From a virus (Duplodnaviria > Heunggongvirae > Uroviricota > Caudoviricetes), in IMG/VR virus record IMGVR_UViG_2698536471_000020, positions 1 to 9,675 of that record: a stretch of 9,675 nt of DNA; one strand, written 5' to 3'. How positions within the stretch are numbered: position 1 is the first letter of the stretch; each line of letters starts with the position of its first letter. A model generated the notes under the pieces. It was not told where the DNA came from, did not search any database, and saw only the letters and a list, made by a program, of their open reading frames with translations. Made by a program: the position numbers and the translations under genes. Below are positions 3,788 through 9,675 of the stretch, piece by piece.

Positions 3788-5542
3788 TTATAAAAACGCG
3801 TCGCAATCGTCTGTTGTAATTGCGTTGGTCTGCGTTACTCCCTTAACTTTTCGCGTAATATATTCATGCCCGTAAACTTTCGCCGCTGGCTTCATGGCCT
3901 TGCTGAACTCAGCCACGTTTAGCGGTTTGCTCCTGCCTGCGTATGCCATAAACGCCAGATAGACGCGGTAAAGGCTGTTCCTGGTCGTGTACTTCACTGA
4001 ATCACCACCGCCACCCATCATCAGGCCGCGCGCTTCCTCCAGAAAATTCAGGAACTGGCAAAACTCAATAACCGGATCCGTCTGTTGCTTTATTGCCAGT
4101 GCTTCATCACCGTCACGCTGTTCCAGTAGTAAAGCCCTCGCCTTTTCAGGGTCGGTAAAGTTCGCCAGCAAGCGGCGGATAATAACGGGGATTTCAGCCG
4201 CAATTTTTTCCGGTAGTTCCCTGTCTTTTTCGGCCTCACTAACAATATTGTCGAAACGGAAAATCACGCGACGACGTGCCACACCTCCGGCCCGTTCGGT
4301 GAATATCATCGGGTTATTATTGGTCGCCAGCACCACCGCCCTGATTACCGCCGTGAAACGCTTTTCATATTTCGGGTTTATTTCCACGGGGTCGCCGCCC
4401 GTGATTTTCTTGATGCCCGTTCCTTCGCCTGTATATTTCGGCTGGTCTGCTAGGACGATAAGACGACTCCCGACAACCTGCGCACGTCCACCAGCATCAT
4501 CAAGCGATGTCATTTCAGCGCTTACCGTGTTCTGTTTCCCTGCCAGAAGGCTGGCTATGTGTGTGAATGTACTTTTACCGCTCCCGCCGTCTCCGGTGGC
4601 CTCAATAAACATCTGCCAGTCGTACCGGTTCGCCATAATCATGTACAGCGCGGCACATATACGCATCATCTTGCGCGGGTCTTTTCCGGCTGCGTGCTCA
4701 AGCCATTTATGAAAGTTTGGCGCGTTGTCGCGGATATTCTCCCCTGGTGCTGGTGGCGTGTACTCAATGCCGTTGTGCGTGGTGATCCAGTTCTCCGGCG
4801 TGTGCGGGGAAAATTCCCCCGTTTTCAGGTCAAGCGCACCATTGGCGAACGGCAGCAAATCGCCGGACGGCTCGCCCATTGGTTCGGCAATAACTTTTAA
4901 CGCTTCCACGGCGTTATTGATTACGCGCTTGCTGAAAGTGGCCCTGTGCTCTGAATAGATCGCCACCATTTCGCGGCTAAGTTCCATTGTGCTGACCGGA
5001 CACCATACCCCGCCGCGCCATACGTGAACAATTTCACTTTCAGGATGTACGCAAACGCCATCAAAGCGATCGGCAAGCAGCTGCGCGCGCTCACTGTCCG
5101 CCATCTGCGAAAGTTGCGCCTTTTGCTTTACCGGAAGCTCAATGACCAGACCATCAGAAAGATTCTGGCGTTCACGGGCCAGGTATTCGCGCCAGTTCTG
5201 CACCTCCTTGCCGTGCATACCCTCAGGATAAAAATTTGCATCCTGTACACCAGCCGCCGCCAGCTTTTGACCAATCGCCTTTATCATTACTGGTGCAAGA
5301 TATCCGGCCCTGAATATGCGCACGGATTTTCTGCCTTCCGGCACAATTTGCAGCTTATCCAGTTCTGATAACTGCTGCTCCCCAAGCCACACAGGAGGCT
5401 CATTATCTCCGGCCATACGCGCGTCATGTTCCTGCCATTGTTTTGCGTGTGACCAGGCATCACTACCCGCAAAAATAATGACTTCTGTTTCTTTGTGTTT
5501 TATGCCGCGTGACTGCTGTTTTACGTTCGGTGCCAGTTTCAT
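3788..5542 (-). CDS. Replication protein: primase / SF3-type helicase (P4 alpha C-terminal / D5-like family)
   Basis: 584-aa ORF with Walker A P-loop GDGGSGKST and downstream hydrophobic stretch LIVLAD (Walker B-like); size and position (after alpA and small genes, before origin iterons) as for satellite pri/rep genes. ATG overlaps the upstream ORF stop (ATGA at 5539-5542). Confidence 0.8.
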   Translation of the reverse strand: MKLAPNVKQQSRGIKHKETEVIIFAGSDAWSHAKQWQEHDARMAGDNEPPVWLGEQQLSELDKLQIVPEGRKSVRIFRAGYLAPVMIKAIGQKLAAAGVQDANFYPEGMHGKEVQNWREYLARERQNLSDGLVIELPVKQKAQLSQMADSERAQLLADRFDGVCVHPESEIVHVWRGGVWCPVSTMELSREMVAIYSEHRATFSKRVINNAVEALKVIAEPMGEPSGDLLPFANGALDLKTGEFSPHTPENWITTHNGIEYTPPAPGENIRDNAPNFHKWLEHAAGKDPRKMMRICAALYMIMANRYDWQMFIEATGDGGSGKSTFTHIASLLAGKQNTVSAEMTSLDDAGGRAQVVGSRLIVLADQPKYTGEGTGIKKITGGDPVEINPKYEKRFTAVIRAVVLATNNNPMIFTERAGGVARRRVIFRFDNIVSEAEKDRELPEKIAAEIPVIIRRLLANFTDPEKARALLLEQRDGDEALAIKQQTDPVIEFCQFLNFLEEARGLMMGGGGDSVKYTTRNSLYRVYLAFMAYAGRSKPLNVAEFSKAMKPAAKVYGHEYITRKVKGVTQTNAITTDDCDAFL

Positions 5543-6294: not shown

Positions 6295-6496
6295 AAAGCA
6301 TCCCCTGAATATTCGTGTTAATCATTCCGGCACGTTTTGTGATTTCCTGTAATGATTCCCTTGTGGCGACAATTGCTTCATCTGGTAAGTGGTAATTACA
6401 CACCACGCGACCTTTATCCACATTGACCAGTAGCTGCCCTGTGAATTTCTCACGAAACTGAATGCGGTTAAGGTCAGTAAGTGACAGATTAATCAT
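6284..6496 (-). CDS. Hypothetical protein (70 aa from the ATG at 6496), start overlaps the icd-like stop
   Basis: Strong SD AGGAGG 6 nt upstream of the ATG at 6494-6496; ATGATTAA start/stop overlap with the icd-like gene. The track ORF start at 6538 lies inside icd-like and lacks an SD. Confidence 0.5.
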   Translation of the reverse strand: MINLSLTDLNRIQFREKFTGQLLVNVDKGRVVCNYHLPDEAIVATRESLQEITKRAGMINTNIQGMLYAQ

Positions 6497-6677
6497 GGCG
6501 CACCTCCTGACGAATACGGGCGGCAAATACAGCAACACAACCGGACGGGCAACGGTTACGCGCTTCGCGTTCCGTCCAGGCGGTTACGTGGATGATTTGA
6601 TGTTCTGACGCGCCAAAGATGATAAAGCGCCAGAGAAAGGCGGTTTGAGAATGTACAAGGGTAGGGATAGTAGCCAT
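6489..6677 (-). CDS. Icd-like small protein (host cell division inhibitor Icd-like family, 62 aa)
   Basis: It is the C-terminal tail of the 416-codon track ORF, but a strong SD (GAGGAGG) sits 8 nt upstream of the internal ATG at 6675-6677. Sequence MATIPTLVHSQTAFLWRFIIFGASEHQIIHVTAWTEREARNRCPSGCVAVFAARIRQEVRHD fits the remembered Icd-like pattern (F-W-RF ... ERxAR ... FAARxP/Q-E); family assignment is from memory, not a search. Confidence 0.6.
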   Translation of the reverse strand: MATIPTLVHSQTAFLWRFIIFGASEHQIIHVTAWTEREARNRCPSGCVAVFAARIRQEVRHD

Positions 6678-6839
6678 GTTGGCAGCCTCCTCAGTGTGGT
6701 TAAGATAACCGCCACCGGAAACGCCAATTTCGCTGGTGGCGGACTGTACAGGGTTGGCGTAACCGGACACTGAAGAAACCGGCGCGGATTGCTCCGCCCC
6801 CGTACAGCCCACCATTGATAAGGTGTGACTATGCGGCAC

Positions 6840-6861
6840 AAAAAAACACGCGGGGCGCGTG
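6840..6861 (-). terminator. Rho-independent terminator inside the leader upstream of icd-like
   Basis: Minus strand reads CACGCG ccc CGCGTG followed by TTTTTTT (plus-strand A-run 6840-6846, stems 6847-6852 and 6856-6861). Confidence 0.7.
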
Positions 6862-7103
6862 TTATGCGCTTCAGTTTTGCCCAGGACGCCAATCCCGGCA
6901 CCCGTTTTATGAGGTGCGCGGGAATCATAGCCATTTTTGCTGGTGGCGATCAACTGGTTTTTTACACCCGCTTTATTCAGGTTGTGTGAGTCCCGCCCTT
7001 GCGGGTGTGTGGTATGATTTCTCATAGCTACCTCGATACTTTCGCTATCGTTGGTGGTCAGAGGCTGCGAAAGGACGGCAATCCTTTTCAGCCTCGTTTG
7101 CAT

Positions 7104-7207
7104 TGAGTGATAAACACTCAGCTGGATTCCAGTATAATCACTAAGTGGAATCCACTTCAAGCGTTTTGTTTTGGTCTTTTTCGTGTATACTGGATTCCAG
7201 TAATCAC
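7104..7207. promoter_or_regulatory. Divergent promoter/operator region with three TGGAWTCCA palindromes
   Basis: Palindromes CTGGATTCCAG (7122-7132), AAGTGGAATCCACTT (7143-7157), CTGGATTCCAG (7190-7200); extra inverted repeat TGAGTG-ataaa-CACTCA (7104-7120). Minus-strand promoter TTGAAG (7160-7155), 18-nt spacer, TATACT (7136-7131) overlaps the plus-strand TATAAT (7133-7138). Direct repeat CTGGATTCCAGTA(T)AATCAC at 7122-7142 and 7190-7207. Confidence 0.6.
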
Positions 7208-7221
7208 AAAGGGAACCAGAA

Positions 7222-7401
7222 ATGGAAAGAGACCATATCAATAACAAATCACAGAAATTACAGGCTCGCGCCCCGCATGAAGTTGTTGAGGCTATGGAGC
7301 AAGTAAAAGAAACAGGCGAGAGCACTGCGCAATTTATCGTTACAGCCATGCGAGGCGAGATCAAACGCCGCCAGCGCCGTAAGGCCAAAGAATCAGAATA
7401 A
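7222..7401 (+). CDS. Small ribbon-helix-helix-like DNA-binding protein (59 aa; below the ORF-track size cut-off)
   Basis: ATG at 7222 with AGGGA about 8 nt upstream, TAA at 7399-7401. Translation MERDHINNKSQKLQARAPHEVVEAMEQVKETGESTAQFIVTAMRGEIKRRQRRKAKESE has an RHH-like layout (basic strand RAPHEVV, two short helices, basic tail). Sits immediately downstream of the operator palindromes. Confidence 0.45.
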   Translation: MERDHINNKSQKLQARAPHEVVEAMEQVKETGESTAQFIVTAMRGEIKRRQRRKAKESE

Positions 7402-7458
7402 TCACTATCAGCGCCGTGGTGTGAGGTACTACGGCGCATTGCTTTACAGGGCAGTACC

Positions 7459-7686
7459 ATGACTAACAACACACTATCACCAATACAAGACACGCAAACG
7501 CAAGATGATGAAATCATCCGGCAAAGGCAGTCAGAAGCCTGCGCCAGAGTTGAGGAAGAACTAACCAGAACAAAAATACCACCACCAGCGCCGCGCTTAA
7601 TGCCACCAGAAAAATTTGCCCTTGAAGATTTTGTCGAGAAATACCCACGGCGGTTAAAAGCCACTAAAAACCGACCGCCTGGCTGA
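7459..7686 (+). CDS. Hypothetical protein (75 aa), possibly co-transcribed with the RHH-like gene
   Basis: ORF with protein-like charged composition but a weak SD. A hairpin GCGCCGT (7411-7417) / ACGGCGC (7431-7437) lies between it and the RHH gene. Convergent with alpA. Confidence 0.3.
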   Translation: MTNNTLSPIQDTQTQDDEIIRQRQSEACARVEEELTRTKIPPPAPRLMPPEKFALEDFVEKYPRRLKATKNRPPG

Positions 7687-7832
7687 TAGCCTTGTCCACC
7701 AGCTACGGCGGTGCTAAGATTGAAAGCTGCATAAGTCATGAAATAAACTCCTTAGCGGTGCATACGCGCCGCTTCTTTCTTCACGAACAACTACAAACAA
7801 AAACACGGACGGAATTTAAAGAATGAATATTC

Positions 7833-8027
7833 TTAATTGACGCGTTCGCGGTTTTTGACCCACGCCACAACCTCAGACTTAACCCAGCCAACAGAACGAC
7901 CGCCGAGACTGATACGGGAAGGGAAGCGGCCCTGCTTTTCCATCTCGTAACGAGTTGTGCGGCAAACGCCTGTTAGCTCTCTGCATTCTTTTTCGCGGAT
8001 TACACGATCTTCATTTATTTCGCGCAT
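7833..8027 (-). CDS. alpA: AlpA-family transcriptional regulator / excisionase-like protein
   Basis: 64-aa ORF; HTH followed by GGRSVGWVKSEVVAWV matches the AlpA (Phage_AlpA) pattern; located directly downstream of the integrase on the same strand. Confidence 0.8.
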   Translation of the reverse strand: MREINEDRVIREKECRELTGVCRTTRYEMEKQGRFPSRISLGGRSVGWVKSEVVAWVKNRERVN

Positions 8028-8360
8028 AAAAAGCCCTACATAAAATTACGTATAGAAATTTTTGTTTCGCTGTGGATATACGGAAAGAGATTACTTCTTA
8101 GCTTTTCTTACCTCTTAAATTGAAGGCGTAACCTTGCCAAAAGCTATGCTCGCCAAGGTTCGCAAGGGTTCGTTGTTGTTCATAAAATCGTTGCACACCA
8201 GGAAAGACAATTCAACATTAAAATTCCCTCTACAGTGAGGGATAATTAAAAAAACAAATTAAAACAGTCACATAAAAGCATGCACTTTGAAATAAAGGAA
8301 AATATTAAAACTCAAGTAGACAATCGCTGTTTTCAAATTTTTTCAATACTTGACACATAT

Positions 8361-8393
8361 AAATCGTCGATATTTGCCGATATTCGACGATTT
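8361..8393. promoter_or_regulatory. Inverted repeat in the int-alpA intergenic region (candidate regulator binding site)
   Basis: Perfect 10-bp arms AAATCGTCGA (8361-8370) and TCGACGATTT (8384-8393), extending to about 13-bp arms with one indel; consensus TTGACA at 8350-8355; region 8040-8436 is AT-rich. Confidence 0.4.
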
Positions 8394-8436
8394 ATTTTAG
8401 AGGGCCATTTTTCGCAAGAAAAACAGCCGTAATTTG

Positions 8437-9675
8437 TCAAGAATTTTGAGAGTAAATTCGCGGGGTCATAACAACGATTTTTTCATCATTGTTCTGGAGA
8501 AGCTCGAGACGCTCAACCCATAGATTAAGAGCGTCACGTTTTGCATCGAGATAACGGGAGTGATTATAGACTCGTTGCACTCCTGGCAACTGGTGCGCGG
8601 TTAGCTGCTCCACTACATGAGGATCCACGCCTAAATCGTTCAGCATCGTTGTAAACGTGTGCCGGATGTCGTGCAACGTCCAGGGGGCTTGATTAATGCG
8701 TCTGTGTGCCGTTCTTCCGTACTCTGATACAGATGATTGCCCTTTCAGTTCTCCGAGCAATAAGCCTGTATGCCTGTTCTGCTCAACCAGCTGCGTGACG
8801 AACGGCAAGATCGCTTCCGGTATAGGCCGGAATATTGCTACCTTCGTTTTGCTGTGCTCCTTCGGAACGGTCCAGAGCATTTCTTTAAAATCCCATTCCT
8901 GGACCTCAGAGCGTCTTAGCTCAGTGGTACGGCATCCGAAGACAATCAGGAGGCGAATCAGGGCGCTGTAGTACGGTGGGTAAATTTTTTCATCCAGGGC
9001 GCGGAGTAATTCCCCAAGCTCCTTGTTTGTTAGTACGCGCTGGCTTATTTCTGCTTTTTTCCCAACATCACCGACAACCATATCATCAAGAACGTTGCTG
9101 ATTGCGTAGCGTCGTTTGCGGCAGTACTTAAGCGCCTGCTTGCATACCTGCAACAAAAAACCTGCTGATACCGGATTACGCTTAGCAAGCTGATCAAAAC
9201 AGGTCAGCCAGTGGCGTAGCTCGCATTTTTCCAGCGGCATAGCACCAATCTGGCTGATTATGTGTGTATTGATCCGGCTCTTCAGAGATTCGTAGTCTGT
9301 GCGCTTTTCCTTCGCGTACGATTCAAGCCAGTAAGTGAGCGCTTCCTTAACCGTAACAGGTGATAACGCTTCCTGTACGGTGTGATTAAGCTCATGGCGT
9401 GGATTTTTCCCCTCAGCAAGCCAGGCGCGACACTGCGCCGCTTTTTCCCTGGCTGCTTTCAGGCTCAAATCAGGATAATTTCCCAGCCTCAGACGTTCAG
9501 GGGATACCTTCCTGCCTGTTCCGGCCCTGTAAGTGAAATACCAGGTTAACAGGCCATTGGTTGAATGCCTTACGCTAAGGTTGCCACCATCATTAAAAAA
9601 GGTGTTTTTTGTGGTTGGTGATCCGCTTAATTTTCGTAAAAGAGTGTCGCTAAGTCTATGAATTGCCCTGCTCAT
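8437..9675 (-). CDS. int: Tyrosine-type site-specific integrase (P4-type, arm-binding N-terminal domain)
   Basis: 412-aa ORF with catalytic-domain signatures in the translation: GCRTTELRRSE (box I Arg), LHDIRHTFTT (H-x-x-R), VYNHSRYLD (catalytic Tyr region). The ATG is the last 3 nt of the window, so the true start and the att site cannot be verified. Confidence 0.85.
   Translation of the reverse strand: MSRAIHRLSDTLLRKLSGSPTTKNTFFNDGGNLSVRHSTNGLLTWYFTYRAGTGRKVSPERLRLGNYPDLSLKAAREKAAQCRAWLAEGKNPRHELNHTVQEALSPVTVKEALTYWLESYAKEKRTDYESLKSRINTHIISQIGAMPLEKCELRHWLTCFDQLAKRNPVSAGFLLQVCKQALKYCRKRRYAISNVLDDMVVGDVGKKAEISQRVLTNKELGELLRALDEKIYPPYYSALIRLLIVFGCRTTELRRSEVQEWDFKEMLWTVPKEHSKTKVAIFRPIPEAILPFVTQLVEQNRHTGLLLGELKGQSSVSEYGRTAHRRINQAPWTLHDIRHTFTTMLNDLGVDPHVVEQLTAHQLPGVQRVYNHSRYLDAKRDALNLWVERLELLQNNDEKIVVMTPRIYSQNS

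What the first reader, a model, noticed from the sequence alone, without database searches (positions are those of the whole stretch)
7222..7686. Divergent plus-strand pair: RHH-like regulator (unannotated, 59 aa) and a 75-aa ORF
The only plausible plus-strand genes in the window start immediately after the operator palindromes. The first is below the ORF-track length cut-off and has a ribbon-helix-helix-like sequence, so it is a candidate repressor of the divergent icd-pri promoter. The second is less certain. The pair is convergent with alpA, which is unusual if all island genes are assumed co-directional.
Basis: partly seen in the sequence, partly recalled or inferred. Interest (0 to 1): 0.5.

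Follow-up and report, generated by a model that had tools for sequence, protein, structure and literature searches.

The report
Small repressor gene of a phage satellite
The 59-residue plus-strand gene very probably encodes a small DNA-binding repressor that sits on three matching sites over the promoter of the island's replication genes, so it is a candidate for the repressor whose existence in Gram-negative phage satellites the literature calls unclear; the 75-residue gene next to it is a separate orphan gene found only in E. coli.

Summary
Both ORFs exist exactly as described (7222-7401, 59 aa; 7459-7686, 75 aa), just downstream of three copies of TGGAWTCCA. The window is an E. coli phage-satellite island (int, alpA, C4/isrK RNAs, Icd-like gene, primase, protease-capsid fusion).

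ORF1 is a YlcI/YnfO-family protein, already annotated as such in RefSeq, and its predicted fold is ribbon-helix-helix. In 46 loci from many Enterobacterales genera it keeps the same slot and strand. Three 11-bp sites (GTG-N5-CAC type) lie at fixed offsets (-31, -76, about -100) from its start codon. At least 11 operator classes each pair with their own beta-strand residues in ORF1. They do not track AlpA or the Icd-like gene. The sites overlap the cores of the leftward and rightward promoters. ORF1 is therefore best read as an autoregulated repressor of the replication operon. This has not been tested experimentally.

ORF2 is not a conserved partner of ORF1. It belongs to an orphan family found only in E. 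coli, occurs in tandem arrays, and each copy follows a conserved hairpin.

Unexpectedly, both genes and the operator region lie antisense inside a 416-codon leftward ORF that is strongly selected to stay open. This ORF is an extended version of P4's eta.

The parts
7222..7401 (+). ORF1, 59 aa: YlcI/YnfO-family ribbon-helix-helix protein, the proposed operator-binding repressor. Predicted beta strand about residues 9-17, helix A 19-28, G-E-S turn 32-34, helix B 35-58 with the invariant EIKRRQR motif.
7122..7132 (.). Operator O1 (CTGGATTCCAG). It overlaps the last two bases of the leftward -10 box and the leftward start region.
   Evidence: A homologous site lies at about -98 to -111 from the ORF1 ATG in other loci.
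7145..7155 (.). Operator O2 (GTGGAATCCAC). It lies in the spacer of the leftward promoter and abuts its -35 box.
   Evidence: A homologous site lies at -76 in nearly all loci.
7190..7200 (.). Operator O3 (CTGGATTCCAG). It overlaps the last two bases of the rightward -10 box and the ORF1 transcription start region (autoregulation).
   Evidence: A homologous site lies at -31 in nearly all loci.
7131..7160 (-). Leftward promoter: TTGAAG (7160-7155), 18-nt spacer, TATACT (7136-7131). It drives the isrK/C4 leader, the Ash/Icd-like gene and, inferred from gene order, the genes up to the primase.
   Evidence: Promoter scan, 9 of 12 matches. The equivalent promoter was found independently in L003 and L014.
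7186..7191 (+). Conserved TATACT, the proposed -10 box of the ORF1 promoter. The -35 is poor. A rival plus-strand promoter, TAAACA-16-TATAAT at 7111-7138, exists in this window only.
   Evidence: TATACT is kept at the same offset in almost all loci whatever the operator class. The scan found the rival promoter.
7411..7437 (+). Conserved hairpin of 10-12 bp between ORF1 and ORF2. It starts exactly 48 nt before the ATG of every ORF2-family gene. It could be a weak terminator, an attenuator or a processing/stability element.
   Evidence: 12 pairs. (fixed 48-nt spacing in all E. coli copies). (89% of cells paired, 3 pairs with compensatory changes).
7459..7686 (+). ORF2, 75 aa: member of an orphan family found only in E. 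coli. One long helix, a Pro-rich linker and a conserved C-terminus FALEDFVEKYPRRLKATKNRPPG. Function unknown.
   Evidence: 41 clusters, all E. coli, all 'hypothetical'. AF2 gives helix 8-37 and helix 55-61, pLDDT 75. The plus frame is more conservative than the overlapping minus frame.
7754..7773 (+). Terminator-like hairpin plus T-run that ends the plus-strand unit. On the minus strand it is not followed by a T-run.
6489..7739 (-). 416-codon leftward ORF (ATG 7739 preceded by AAGGAG). It runs antisense through ORF2, the hairpin, ORF1, the operators and promoters, and the isrK/C4 leader. It ends as the Ash/Icd-like protein. It is an extended analogue of P4 eta/kil.
   Evidence: ribosome-binding site. 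Residues 236-415 match PHROG 29966 (347 bits) and Pfam Phage_ASH; residues 1-212 match nothing. Selection for openness. P4 comparison.
6841..6917 (-). isrK-type RNA element (relative of P4 seqA) in the leftward leader.
   Evidence: Rfam RF01394, 66 bits against a gathering score of 50.
6732..6819 (-). C4-type antisense/immunity RNA (relative of P4 CI RNA).
   Evidence: Rfam RF01695, 77.6 bits against a gathering score of 45.
7833..8027 (-). alpA, the known activator of Gram-negative PICIs. It is convergent with ORF1/ORF2 and lies upstream of the long leftward ORF.
   Evidence: Pfam Phage_AlpA, E 4.7e-16. Role taken from PMC6092414.

Best explanation
ORF1 encodes a small ribbon-helix-helix DNA-binding protein of the YlcI/YnfO (DUF3950) family. 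I propose that, as dimers, it binds three 11-bp operators (GTG/CTG-N5-CAC/CAG; here TGGAWTCCA cores). O1 and O2 bracket the -10 box of the leftward promoter that drives the isrK/C4 leader, the Ash/Icd-like gene and the primase operon, so binding there should repress the island's early/replication operon. O3 overlaps the end of the -10 box and the start site of ORF1's own promoter, so the gene should be negatively autoregulated.

The central 5 bp of the operators and residues 12, 14 and 17 of the beta strand have diversified together into at least 11 specificity classes. This is what an island-specific 'immunity' repressor is expected to do. The protein works on top of the P4-like C4/CI RNA immunity encoded in the leader.

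Shown here (in silico): family membership, the fold prediction, the fixed operator geometry, the promoter overlap, and protein-operator covariation that is independent of the neighbouring genes.

Inferred: that binding represses; that ORF1 maintains quiescence of the island; and how repression is lifted. My preferred inference for the last point is that AlpA-dependent leftward transcription enters from alpA, is translated as the 416-codon eta-like ORF, runs antisense through ORF2 and ORF1 (interfering with their expression), and bypasses the repressed internal promoter, as the late PLL transcript does in P4.

ORF2 is an independent small gene of unknown function. It is probably expressed by read-through of the conserved hairpin.
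For: Family: NCBIfam YlcI_YnfO_N scores 72.3 bits against a cut-off of 30. PHROG 949, E 3.4e-27, is the same PHROG as K-12 YlcI, E 2.5e-35.

Synteny: in 46 loci from Serratia, Xenorhabdus, Pectobacterium, Proteus, Yersinia and others, the homologue always sits on the plus strand between pri/Icd (minus strand) and alpA/int (minus strand).

Operators: three sites lie at -31, -76 and about -98 to -111 from the ATG in nearly every locus.

Covariation: the Mantel r between operator distance and beta-strand distance is 0.73. It is 0.22 for AlpA and 0.19 for the first leftward ORF. Sixteen locus pairs have the same AlpA but a different operator and a different ORF1. Five pairs have AlpA more than 50% different but the same operator and the same beta strand. 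Residue 14 has the highest adjusted mutual information with operator class (0.84), followed by residues 17, 5 and 12.

Further E. coli variants occupy the same slot with their own triple operators: a 65-aa DUF3950 type with TGTGCGCACA and a 101-aa type with TGAATCACA.

Promoters: the leftward promoter TTGAAG-18-TATACT overlaps O1 and O2. Equivalent promoters were found independently in L003 and L014.

Against: There is no experimental evidence of binding, repression or plus-strand transcription.

The covariation test cannot tell which DNA strand of the ORF1 region is being read, because the antisense frame is also open. The assignment to ORF1 rests on its fold, ribbon-helix-helix sequence pattern, ribosome-binding site and codon-position pattern.

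The -35 box of the proposed ORF1 promoter is poor, and a rival plus-strand promoter exists in this window.

No operator lies near the alpA promoter, so ORF1 cannot be the sole master switch.

Some related E. coli islands (L049-L052) have no ORF1 at all.
Confidence: 0.7

Rival explanations
1. ORF1 binds the same operators but is not the maintenance repressor. Instead it is a Cro-like or Vis-like protein made after induction, which shuts off or tunes the internal leftward promoter. Alternatively it is a CopG-like copy-number controller of the primase operon when the island replicates as a plasmid.
For: The promoter and operator geometry fits any negative regulator. In P4 the internal promoter PLE is constitutive in the lysogen and immunity is provided by the CI RNA (PMC10111431); this window carries the same C4/isrK RNAs. 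Some islands lack ORF1.
Against: Diversification into many operator/protein specificity classes is typical of immunity repressors. The gene has its own autoregulated promoter and is oriented against the AlpA-driven induction transcript, which fits expression in the quiescent state.
Confidence: 0.17
2. ORF1 and ORF2 form a type II toxin-antitoxin pair: an RHH antitoxin that autoregulates through the palindromes, plus a small toxin.
Against: ORF1 consists only of the DNA-binding domain plus a short basic tail, with no toxin-binding extension. ORF2 is absent from all 46 loci outside E. coli. It occurs without ORF1 and as 2-4 tandem paralogues. A strong hairpin separates the two genes. No toxin family or PADLOC family matches either ORF. 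Two of the three operators serve the divergent promoter, not the ORF1 promoter.
Confidence: 0.04
3. The plus-strand ORFs are 'shadow' ORFs of the long leftward ORF. The leftward ORF would be the only real gene, and the plus frames stay open merely because third codon positions coincide.
For: The minus frame is open across the whole cassette and is under strong selection. One gene caller preferred the long minus ORF in L049. ORF2 has a weak ribosome-binding site and weak codon-position contrast.
Against: For ORF1: a confident family and fold assignment; ribosome-binding sites; a plus-strand codon-position pattern; and conservation over genera with 59-64 aa length. The part of the minus ORF antisense to ORF1/ORF2 matches no family. 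For ORF2: the start codon is fixed 48 nt after the hairpin; discrete stops follow the basic tail in very divergent paralogues; and the plus frame is more conservative than the minus frame (synonymous fraction 0.33 against 0.28, mean BLOSUM62 1.41 against 0.70). This rival is close to excluded for ORF1 but stays open for ORF2, at about 0.2.
Confidence: 0.05

Closest known systems
Phage P22 immI region (Mnt and Arc ribbon-helix-helix repressors controlling the ant operon). This comparison rests on my own knowledge of the system.
   Same: A very small RHH repressor is transcribed divergently from an accessory 'immunity' operon. Its operators overlap the core of the divergent promoter and its own promoter. 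An antisense RNA acts in the controlled operon.
   Different: No sequence-level relationship was detected. There are three 11-bp GTG-N5-CAC sites rather than one 17-21-bp operator. The controlled operon carries C4/isrK RNAs, an Ash/Icd-like gene and a primase, not ant. The gene is embedded antisense in a translated ORF.
Satellite phage P4 immunity region (vis, the nested eta/kil ORFs, internal promoter PLE, seqA and CI RNA, then epsilon and the alpha primase).
   Same: Same order: alpA/vis, then a long ORF ending in an Ash/Icd-like domain, with an internal promoter, an isrK-type and a C4-type RNA inside it, then the primase. In P4 these are C4 at 8420-8507, isrK at 8615-8692 and the ORF at 8168-8812 overlapping the end of vis. 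In the window they are C4 at 6732-6819, isrK at 6841-6917 and the ORF at 6489-7739.
   Different: P4 has 72 nt between vis and the isrK element and no plus-strand gene there. The window has 916 nt holding ORF2, a hairpin, ORF1 and three operators, and the long ORF is stretched to 416 codons to span them. No protein repressor with operators at PLE of this kind is annotated in the P4 record.
Stl/Rpr master repressors of SaPIs and other Gram-positive PICIs.
   Same: A repressor gene is transcribed divergently from the excision/replication operon of a phage-inducible island (PMC6092414).
   Different: Stl lies next to int and is co-oriented with it (PMC6092414). It is much larger and, from my own knowledge, a helix-turn-helix protein that is inactivated by helper-phage proteins. 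ORF1 is a 59-aa RHH protein, opposed to int and alpA, and nothing is known about how it is inactivated.
YlcI (DLP12) and YnfO (Qin) of E. coli K-12, Pfam DUF3950.
   Same: Same NCBIfam and PHROG family. YlcI has the same strand, helix, G-x-x turn and helix pattern. An intermediate 65-aa DUF3950-type variant occupies the ORF1 slot in L057.
   Different: YlcI lies at the cos end of a lambdoid prophage, divergent from the terminase gene nohD. Reading its upstream sequence by eye I saw no comparable triple operator. Pairwise similarity to ORF1 is weak. Neither protein has a published function in the library searched.
CopG of plasmid pMV158, and RHH antitoxins (ParD, MazE6, TacA).
   Same: Small RHH proteins that repress the promoter of a replication or toxin operon and autoregulate. 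They are the best structural matches.
   Different: CopG is co-transcribed with the gene it controls. Antitoxins carry a toxin-binding tail and have a conserved toxin partner, and ORF1 has neither.

Membership tests
Ribbon-helix-helix (MetJ/Arc/CopG) superfamily | Strand, helix A, G-x-S/T/N turn, helix B topology in about 45 residues. | tested here: met
Ribbon-helix-helix (MetJ/Arc/CopG) superfamily | Obligate dimer whose paired N-terminal strands form the DNA-reading ribbon. | not testable with these tools
   Only monomer prediction is available. The monomer model shows residues 8-16 as short helices. Alternation of variable polar residues (12, 14, 16) with hydrophobic ones (13, 15, 17) fits a strand.
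Ribbon-helix-helix (MetJ/Arc/CopG) superfamily | Sequence-specific binding to short repeated or palindromic operators through strand residues. | tested here: met
   This was tested in silico only. Three sites lie at fixed offsets. Operator core and beta strand covary (Mantel r 0.73; residue 14 has AMI 0.84) independently of the neighbouring genes.
YlcI/YnfO family (NCBIfam NF041551; Pfam DUF3950) | Score above the curated cut-off of the family model. | tested here: met
   NF041551 scores 72.3 bits against a cut-off of 30. RefSeq gives it the same name. Pfam DUF3950 itself was not hit by the window protein, but it is recorded for the 65-aa variant in the same slot in L057.
Type II toxin-antitoxin system (RHH antitoxin) | An adjacent toxin gene that is conserved together with the antitoxin gene. 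| tested here: not met
   ORF2 is absent next to ORF1 homologues outside E. coli. ORF2 occurs without ORF1 and in tandem arrays. No toxin or PADLOC family hits.
Type II toxin-antitoxin system (RHH antitoxin) | A C-terminal toxin-neutralising extension on the antitoxin. | tested here: not met
   ORF1 is 59 aa. Helix B runs to residue 58.
PICI master repressor (Stl/Rpr type) | Transcribed divergently from the xis/replication operon and controls it. | tested here: inconclusive
   The divergent arrangement and the operators on the leftward promoter are present. Control itself was not tested.
PICI master repressor (Stl/Rpr type) | Lies next to int and is co-oriented with it; repression is lifted by a helper-phage protein. 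| tested here: not met
   ORF1 is opposed to int and alpA in all loci. Derepression cannot be tested here.
P4-type RNA immunity module | C4/CI-type RNA and a seqA/isrK-type element inside a long ORF that starts just after the alpA/vis gene and contains an internal promoter. | tested here: met
   Rfam C4 scores 77.6 bits and isrK 66 bits. The 416-codon ORF starts 94 nt after alpA with an AAGGAG ribbon-binding site. The same elements are present in P4. This applies to the surroundings, not to ORF1 or ORF2 themselves.

The most novel reading that the evidence does not exclude
The RHH gene and its operators form one half of an antisense-embedded genetic switch. In the quiescent island, ORF1 represses the internal leftward promoter. 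On induction, AlpA-dependent transcription from upstream must be translated without interruption through a 416-codon 'spacer' ORF. That ORF runs antisense across ORF2, ORF1 and the operators. This is why the antisense frame is kept free of stops over hundreds of codons in many genera, and it would at once silence the repressor by convergent transcription and carry RNA polymerase past the C4/isrK termination system. ORF1 would then be the Gram-negative PICI repressor whose existence PMC6092414 calls unclear, with many immunity types.
Probability: 0.35. Interest if true: 0.75.

Novelty: new variant of a known kind. Interest (0 to 1): 0.6.

Why it matters
Gram-negative phage-inducible islands (PICIs, capsid-forming PICIs, helper-embedded PICIs) move virulence and defence genes between bacteria. 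They are thought to be switched on by the activator AlpA, and the founding paper says it is unclear whether they have a global repressor at all (PMC6092414).

This analysis gives a concrete candidate with precise, cheap tests: a 59-aa protein, three mapped operators, and at least 11 natural specificity classes that predict which residues read which bases. The family name YlcI/YnfO/DUF3950 has no assigned function, so a DNA-binding role with a recognition code would annotate thousands of genes. About one in five complete E. coli genomes matches this region.

The selection that keeps a long antisense reading frame open across the repressor gene and its operators is a clean natural case of two-strand coding. 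It is tied to a regulatory decision and suggests how the P4 eta mechanism has been elaborated.

Tried and rejected
2. hhalign of the family against K-12 YlcI alone gave a probability of 5%. The link to YlcI rests on shared HMM families and an intermediate variant.
3. tblastn of ORF1 against 50,697 phage records gave no match. The satellite subfamily is therefore not in sequenced phages at that sensitivity.
4. PADLOC gave no defence-system match for ORF1, ORF2 or the paralogues.
5. My first codon test for antisense openness counted TTA/CTA/TCA codons and used the wrong frame relation. It showed no depletion. The correct test, on wobble-plus-CA/TA contexts, showed 2 observed against 56 expected.
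6. The ORF2 structure is one long helix. I judged a fold search pointless and did not run it.
7. The toxin-antitoxin reading is rejected for the reasons given under rival explanations.
8. AlpA or the Icd-like protein as the operator binder is rejected, because the same AlpA occurs with different operators.
9. I looked for EcCICFT073 in two 45-49-kb stretches of CFT073 and found only the helper prophage and core genes. Whether the prototype PICI carries ORF1 remains untested.
10. Literature searches for YlcI, YnfO, DUF3950, and for an RHH or repressor in Gram-negative PICIs, found no functional description.

Full report
**What the window is.** The ORF list and family scans show a phage-satellite island on the minus strand:
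- integrase, 8437-9675
- AlpA, 7833-8027
- an Icd-like gene ending at 6489
- several small genes and a DUF4222 gene
- a primase, 3788-5542
- SSB
- a ClpP-protease/capsid fusion, 258-2147

Rfam finds a C4 antisense RNA (6732-6819, minus strand, 77.6 bits) and an isrK-type element (6841-6917, minus strand, 66 bits) in the leader of the leftward operon. A 99.7%-identical locus lies between clpS and cspD in an E. coli chromosome. The same regulatory cassette occurs in a helper-embedded island that interrupts a terminase gene of an Stx1 prophage in an O157 strain. About 1134 of 5426 complete E. coli genomes match part of the 1.2-kb query.

**The observation.** ORF1 (7222-7401, 59 aa) and ORF2 (7459-7686, 75 aa) are present exactly as described. 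Three exact copies of TGGAWTCCA lie at 7123-7131, 7146-7154 and 7191-7199 and nowhere else in the window. RefSeq annotates both ORFs: ORF1 as 'YlcI/YnfO family protein' (WP_000439004.1) and ORF2 as hypothetical.

**ORF1 is a real gene and most likely a ribbon-helix-helix protein.**
- It scores 72.3 bits on NCBIfam NF041551 (cut-off 30) and E 3.4e-27 on PHROG 949.
- There are 108 homologue clusters from Escherichia, Salmonella, Klebsiella, Serratia, Yersinia, Xenorhabdus, Pantoea, Pectobacterium and others. Invariant residues are N7, K9, S10, R16, E33, Q37-F-I39 and E46-I-K-R-R50.
- Codon positions diverge as 0.30/0.23/0.535, the pattern of plus-strand coding.
- An AlphaFold model (pLDDT 85.8) gives helix 19-28, a G-E-S turn and helix 35-58.
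- Foldseek and PDB sequence searches were negative, so the fold call is moderate in strength.
- Sub-threshold Pfam hits of family members fall in RHH families.
- K-12 YlcI shows the same pattern and the same PHROG.

**The operators belong to ORF1.** I fetched 46 loci from other genera. In all of them the homologue is on the strand opposite to pri/Icd on one side and to alpA/int on the other. Upstream, three 11-bp sites lie at -31, -76 and about -98 to -111 from the ATG in nearly every locus. The outer GTG/CAC arms are conserved. The inner 5 bp differ between lineages: GGATTCC-like, GCACC, TCAGC, AATCG, TGGCC, TGCTC, TCTTA, CGGAC, AAACA, AACAC and AAATA.

Each operator class goes with one or a few closely related beta-strand sequences.
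- The Mantel correlation of operator distance with beta-strand distance is 0.73. It is 0.22 with AlpA and 0.19 with the first leftward ORF.
- Sixteen locus pairs share AlpA but differ in both operator and ORF1.
- Five pairs differ by more than 50% in AlpA but share operator and beta strand.
- Residue 14 is the best single predictor of operator class (AMI 0.84), followed by residues 17, 5 and 12. Invariant R16 matches the invariant arms.
- Two more E. coli variants in the same slot carry their own triple operators: a 65-aa DUF3950 type with TGTGCGCACA and a 101-aa type with TGAATCACA.

One caveat applies. The covariation test cannot say which strand of the ORF1 DNA is read. The assignment to ORF1 rests on its fold, ribosome-binding site and codon-position pattern.

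**Promoter geometry.** The scan finds a leftward promoter, TTGAAG-18-TATACT, at 7160-7131. O2 lies in its spacer next to the -35 box. O1 overlaps the last two bases of its -10 box and the start region. Equivalent promoters were found independently in L003 and L014. On the plus strand a TATACT (7186-7191) is conserved at the same offset in almost all loci, and O3 overlaps it in the same way as O1 overlaps the leftward box. Its -35 is poor. In this window only, a second plus-strand promoter (TAAACA-16-TATAAT, 7111-7138) is also possible. Sites inside core promoters imply repression of the leftward operon and autoregulation. That step is inference.

**ORF2 is something else.**
- No homologue is found next to ORF1 outside E. 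coli.
- Sequence and profile searches find 25 and 41 clusters respectively, all E. coli and all hypothetical.
- The family shares an N-terminal Q/R/E-rich helix and a C-terminal (F/L)A(L/I)(E/D)xF(L/V)xK...RR.K...NRPPG motif.
- AlphaFold gives one long helix (8-37) and a short one (55-61).
- In related E. coli islands the family occurs as 2-4 tandem paralogues, and also without any ORF1 (L049-L053).
- Every copy starts exactly 48 nt after the start of a conserved hairpin (window 7411-7437). The hairpin pairs in 89% of cells, with three compensatory pairs.
- Among six orthologous alleles the plus frame is more conservative than the overlapping minus frame: synonymous fraction 0.33 against 0.28, and mean BLOSUM62 1.41 against 0.70. 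Differences by codon position are 305, 274 and 440.

I conclude that ORF2 is probably a real orphan gene of unknown role and not a partner of ORF1. A toxin-antitoxin reading fails its defining tests.

**The unexpected context.** The minus strand carries a 416-codon ORF (7739-6489; ATG preceded by AAGGAG). It runs antisense through ORF2, the hairpin, ORF1, the operators and promoters, and the isrK and C4 elements. It ends as the Ash/Icd-like protein. Residues 236-415 match PHROG 29966 (347 bits) and Pfam Phage_ASH. Residues 1-212 match nothing.

The same holds in related loci, with 357 to 623 open codons in the E. coli islands and long open frames in most other genera. This is selected for and is not chance:
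- In 43 distinct ORF1 genes, 251 contexts could create an antisense stop. 56.4 stops are expected and 2 are observed.
- In ORF2-family genes, 16.6 are expected and 0 observed.
- Ordinary genes of the window behave as expected: int 17 observed against 14.7 expected, capsid 18 against 18.3.
- In the 190 nt upstream of ORF1, the continuing minus frame has no stop in 33 of 43 distinct regions. The other two minus frames have 5.4-5.7 stops on average and are never open.

**Comparison with P4.** P4 has the same plan: vis, then a 214-codon ORF (eta) that overlaps the end of vis and contains isrK-type and C4-type RNAs. According to PMC10111431, eta holds an internal constitutive promoter, and translation of eta from the late transcript prevents CI-RNA-dependent termination. 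P4 has only 72 nt between vis and the isrK element. The window has 916 nt, filled by the plus-strand cassette and spanned by the extended ORF.

**Model.**
- In the quiescent island, ORF1 represses the internal leftward promoter and itself, on top of the C4/CI RNA immunity.
- After helper induction, AlpA acts. It is an activator in E. coli PICIs (PMC6092414). A protein of the same name in Pseudomonas is a processive antiterminator (PMC7969949 and PMC9371919), which I treat only as a lead.
- AlpA would drive leftward transcription that is translated through the long ORF, collides with ORF1/ORF2 transcription, and reaches the primase operon.
- Only the anatomy is shown. The dynamics are inferred.

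**Novelty.** No paper in the searchable library assigns a function to YlcI, YnfO or DUF3950, or describes an RHH repressor in Gram-negative PICIs. Published maps of these islands list integration, Bro, replication and late zones without this gene. RHH repressors with divergent promoters are a well-known kind. What is new is the role in these islands, the recognition-code diversification, and the antisense embedding in an eta-like ORF.

Noticed in passing
window 6489-7739 (minus strand): A 416-codon leftward ORF with a strong ribosome-binding site (AAGGAG, 8 nt before ATG 7739). It overlaps ORF1, ORF2, the operators, both promoters and the isrK/C4 RNAs. Only its last 180 residues match known families (Ash, Icd-like). 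The frame is kept open by selection: 2 antisense stops observed against 56 expected in ORF1 genes, and 33 of 43 upstream regions stop-free against 0 of 43 for the other two frames.
   Followed up: yes
window 6732-6819 and 6841-6917 (minus strand): A C4 antisense RNA (77.6 bits) and an isrK-type element (66 bits) lie in the leftward leader, in the same order as in P4 (CI RNA and the seqA region).
   Followed up: partly
window 7411-7437; L050 3210-4247; L053 2403-3725: A conserved hairpin followed by ATTGCTTTACAG precedes every ORF2-family gene by exactly 48 nt. The hairpin-gene unit is repeated 2-4 times in tandem in some E. coli islands, giving a cassette-like array of small orphan genes.
   Followed up: partly
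window 7363-7377 (codons 48-52 of ORF1): Third-position diversity drops to 0.22-0.32 in the codons AAA CGC CGC CAG, against 0.5-0.7 elsewhere in the gene. On the minus strand this stretch forms a small GC hairpin followed by TTTGAT, and it was flagged as terminator-like in L003 and L014. This suggests a nucleotide-level constraint on top of the invariant EIKRRQR motif. Codon S10 is TCA in 40 of 42 genes.
   Followed up: partly
window about 7056-7095, and the matching position in most loci (e.g. GGCCCGG...CCGGGC followed by TTCGCTATTTT): A conserved GC-rich hairpin lies between the leftward start site and the first leftward start codon. Read on the plus strand it looks like an intrinsic terminator pointing towards ORF1. 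I saw it only by eye in the upstream sequences.
   Followed up: no
L053 2940-3119; L058 2992-3168: A second, different small RHH gene (PHROG 228, Arc-like repressor, E 2.5e-6) with its own palindromes (TGTAATG/CATTACA) lies further along the plus-strand array in some E. coli islands. It is preceded by a copy of the leader hairpin region, as if a second regulatory module had been recombined in.
   Followed up: no
L055 (NZ_CP022050.2 4241714-4270445): An island with the identical ORF1 protein is inserted in the terminase large-subunit gene of an Stx1a prophage in an O157 strain. This is a helper-embedded satellite of the type described in PMC10111431.
   Followed up: partly
L028-L038 (Pectobacterium, Dickeya): ORF1 homologues of the KSQQLNARFP class keep their three operators, but no alpA or int lies within 6 kb, and the long antisense frame is interrupted by 1-2 stops. 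These may be a different or decayed element type.
   Followed up: no
L048 7252-7446 (E. coli K-12 DLP12): ylcI lies at the cos end of the prophage and is divergent from the terminase gene nohD, so the phage branch of the family sits in a quite different context from the satellite branch.
   Followed up: partly
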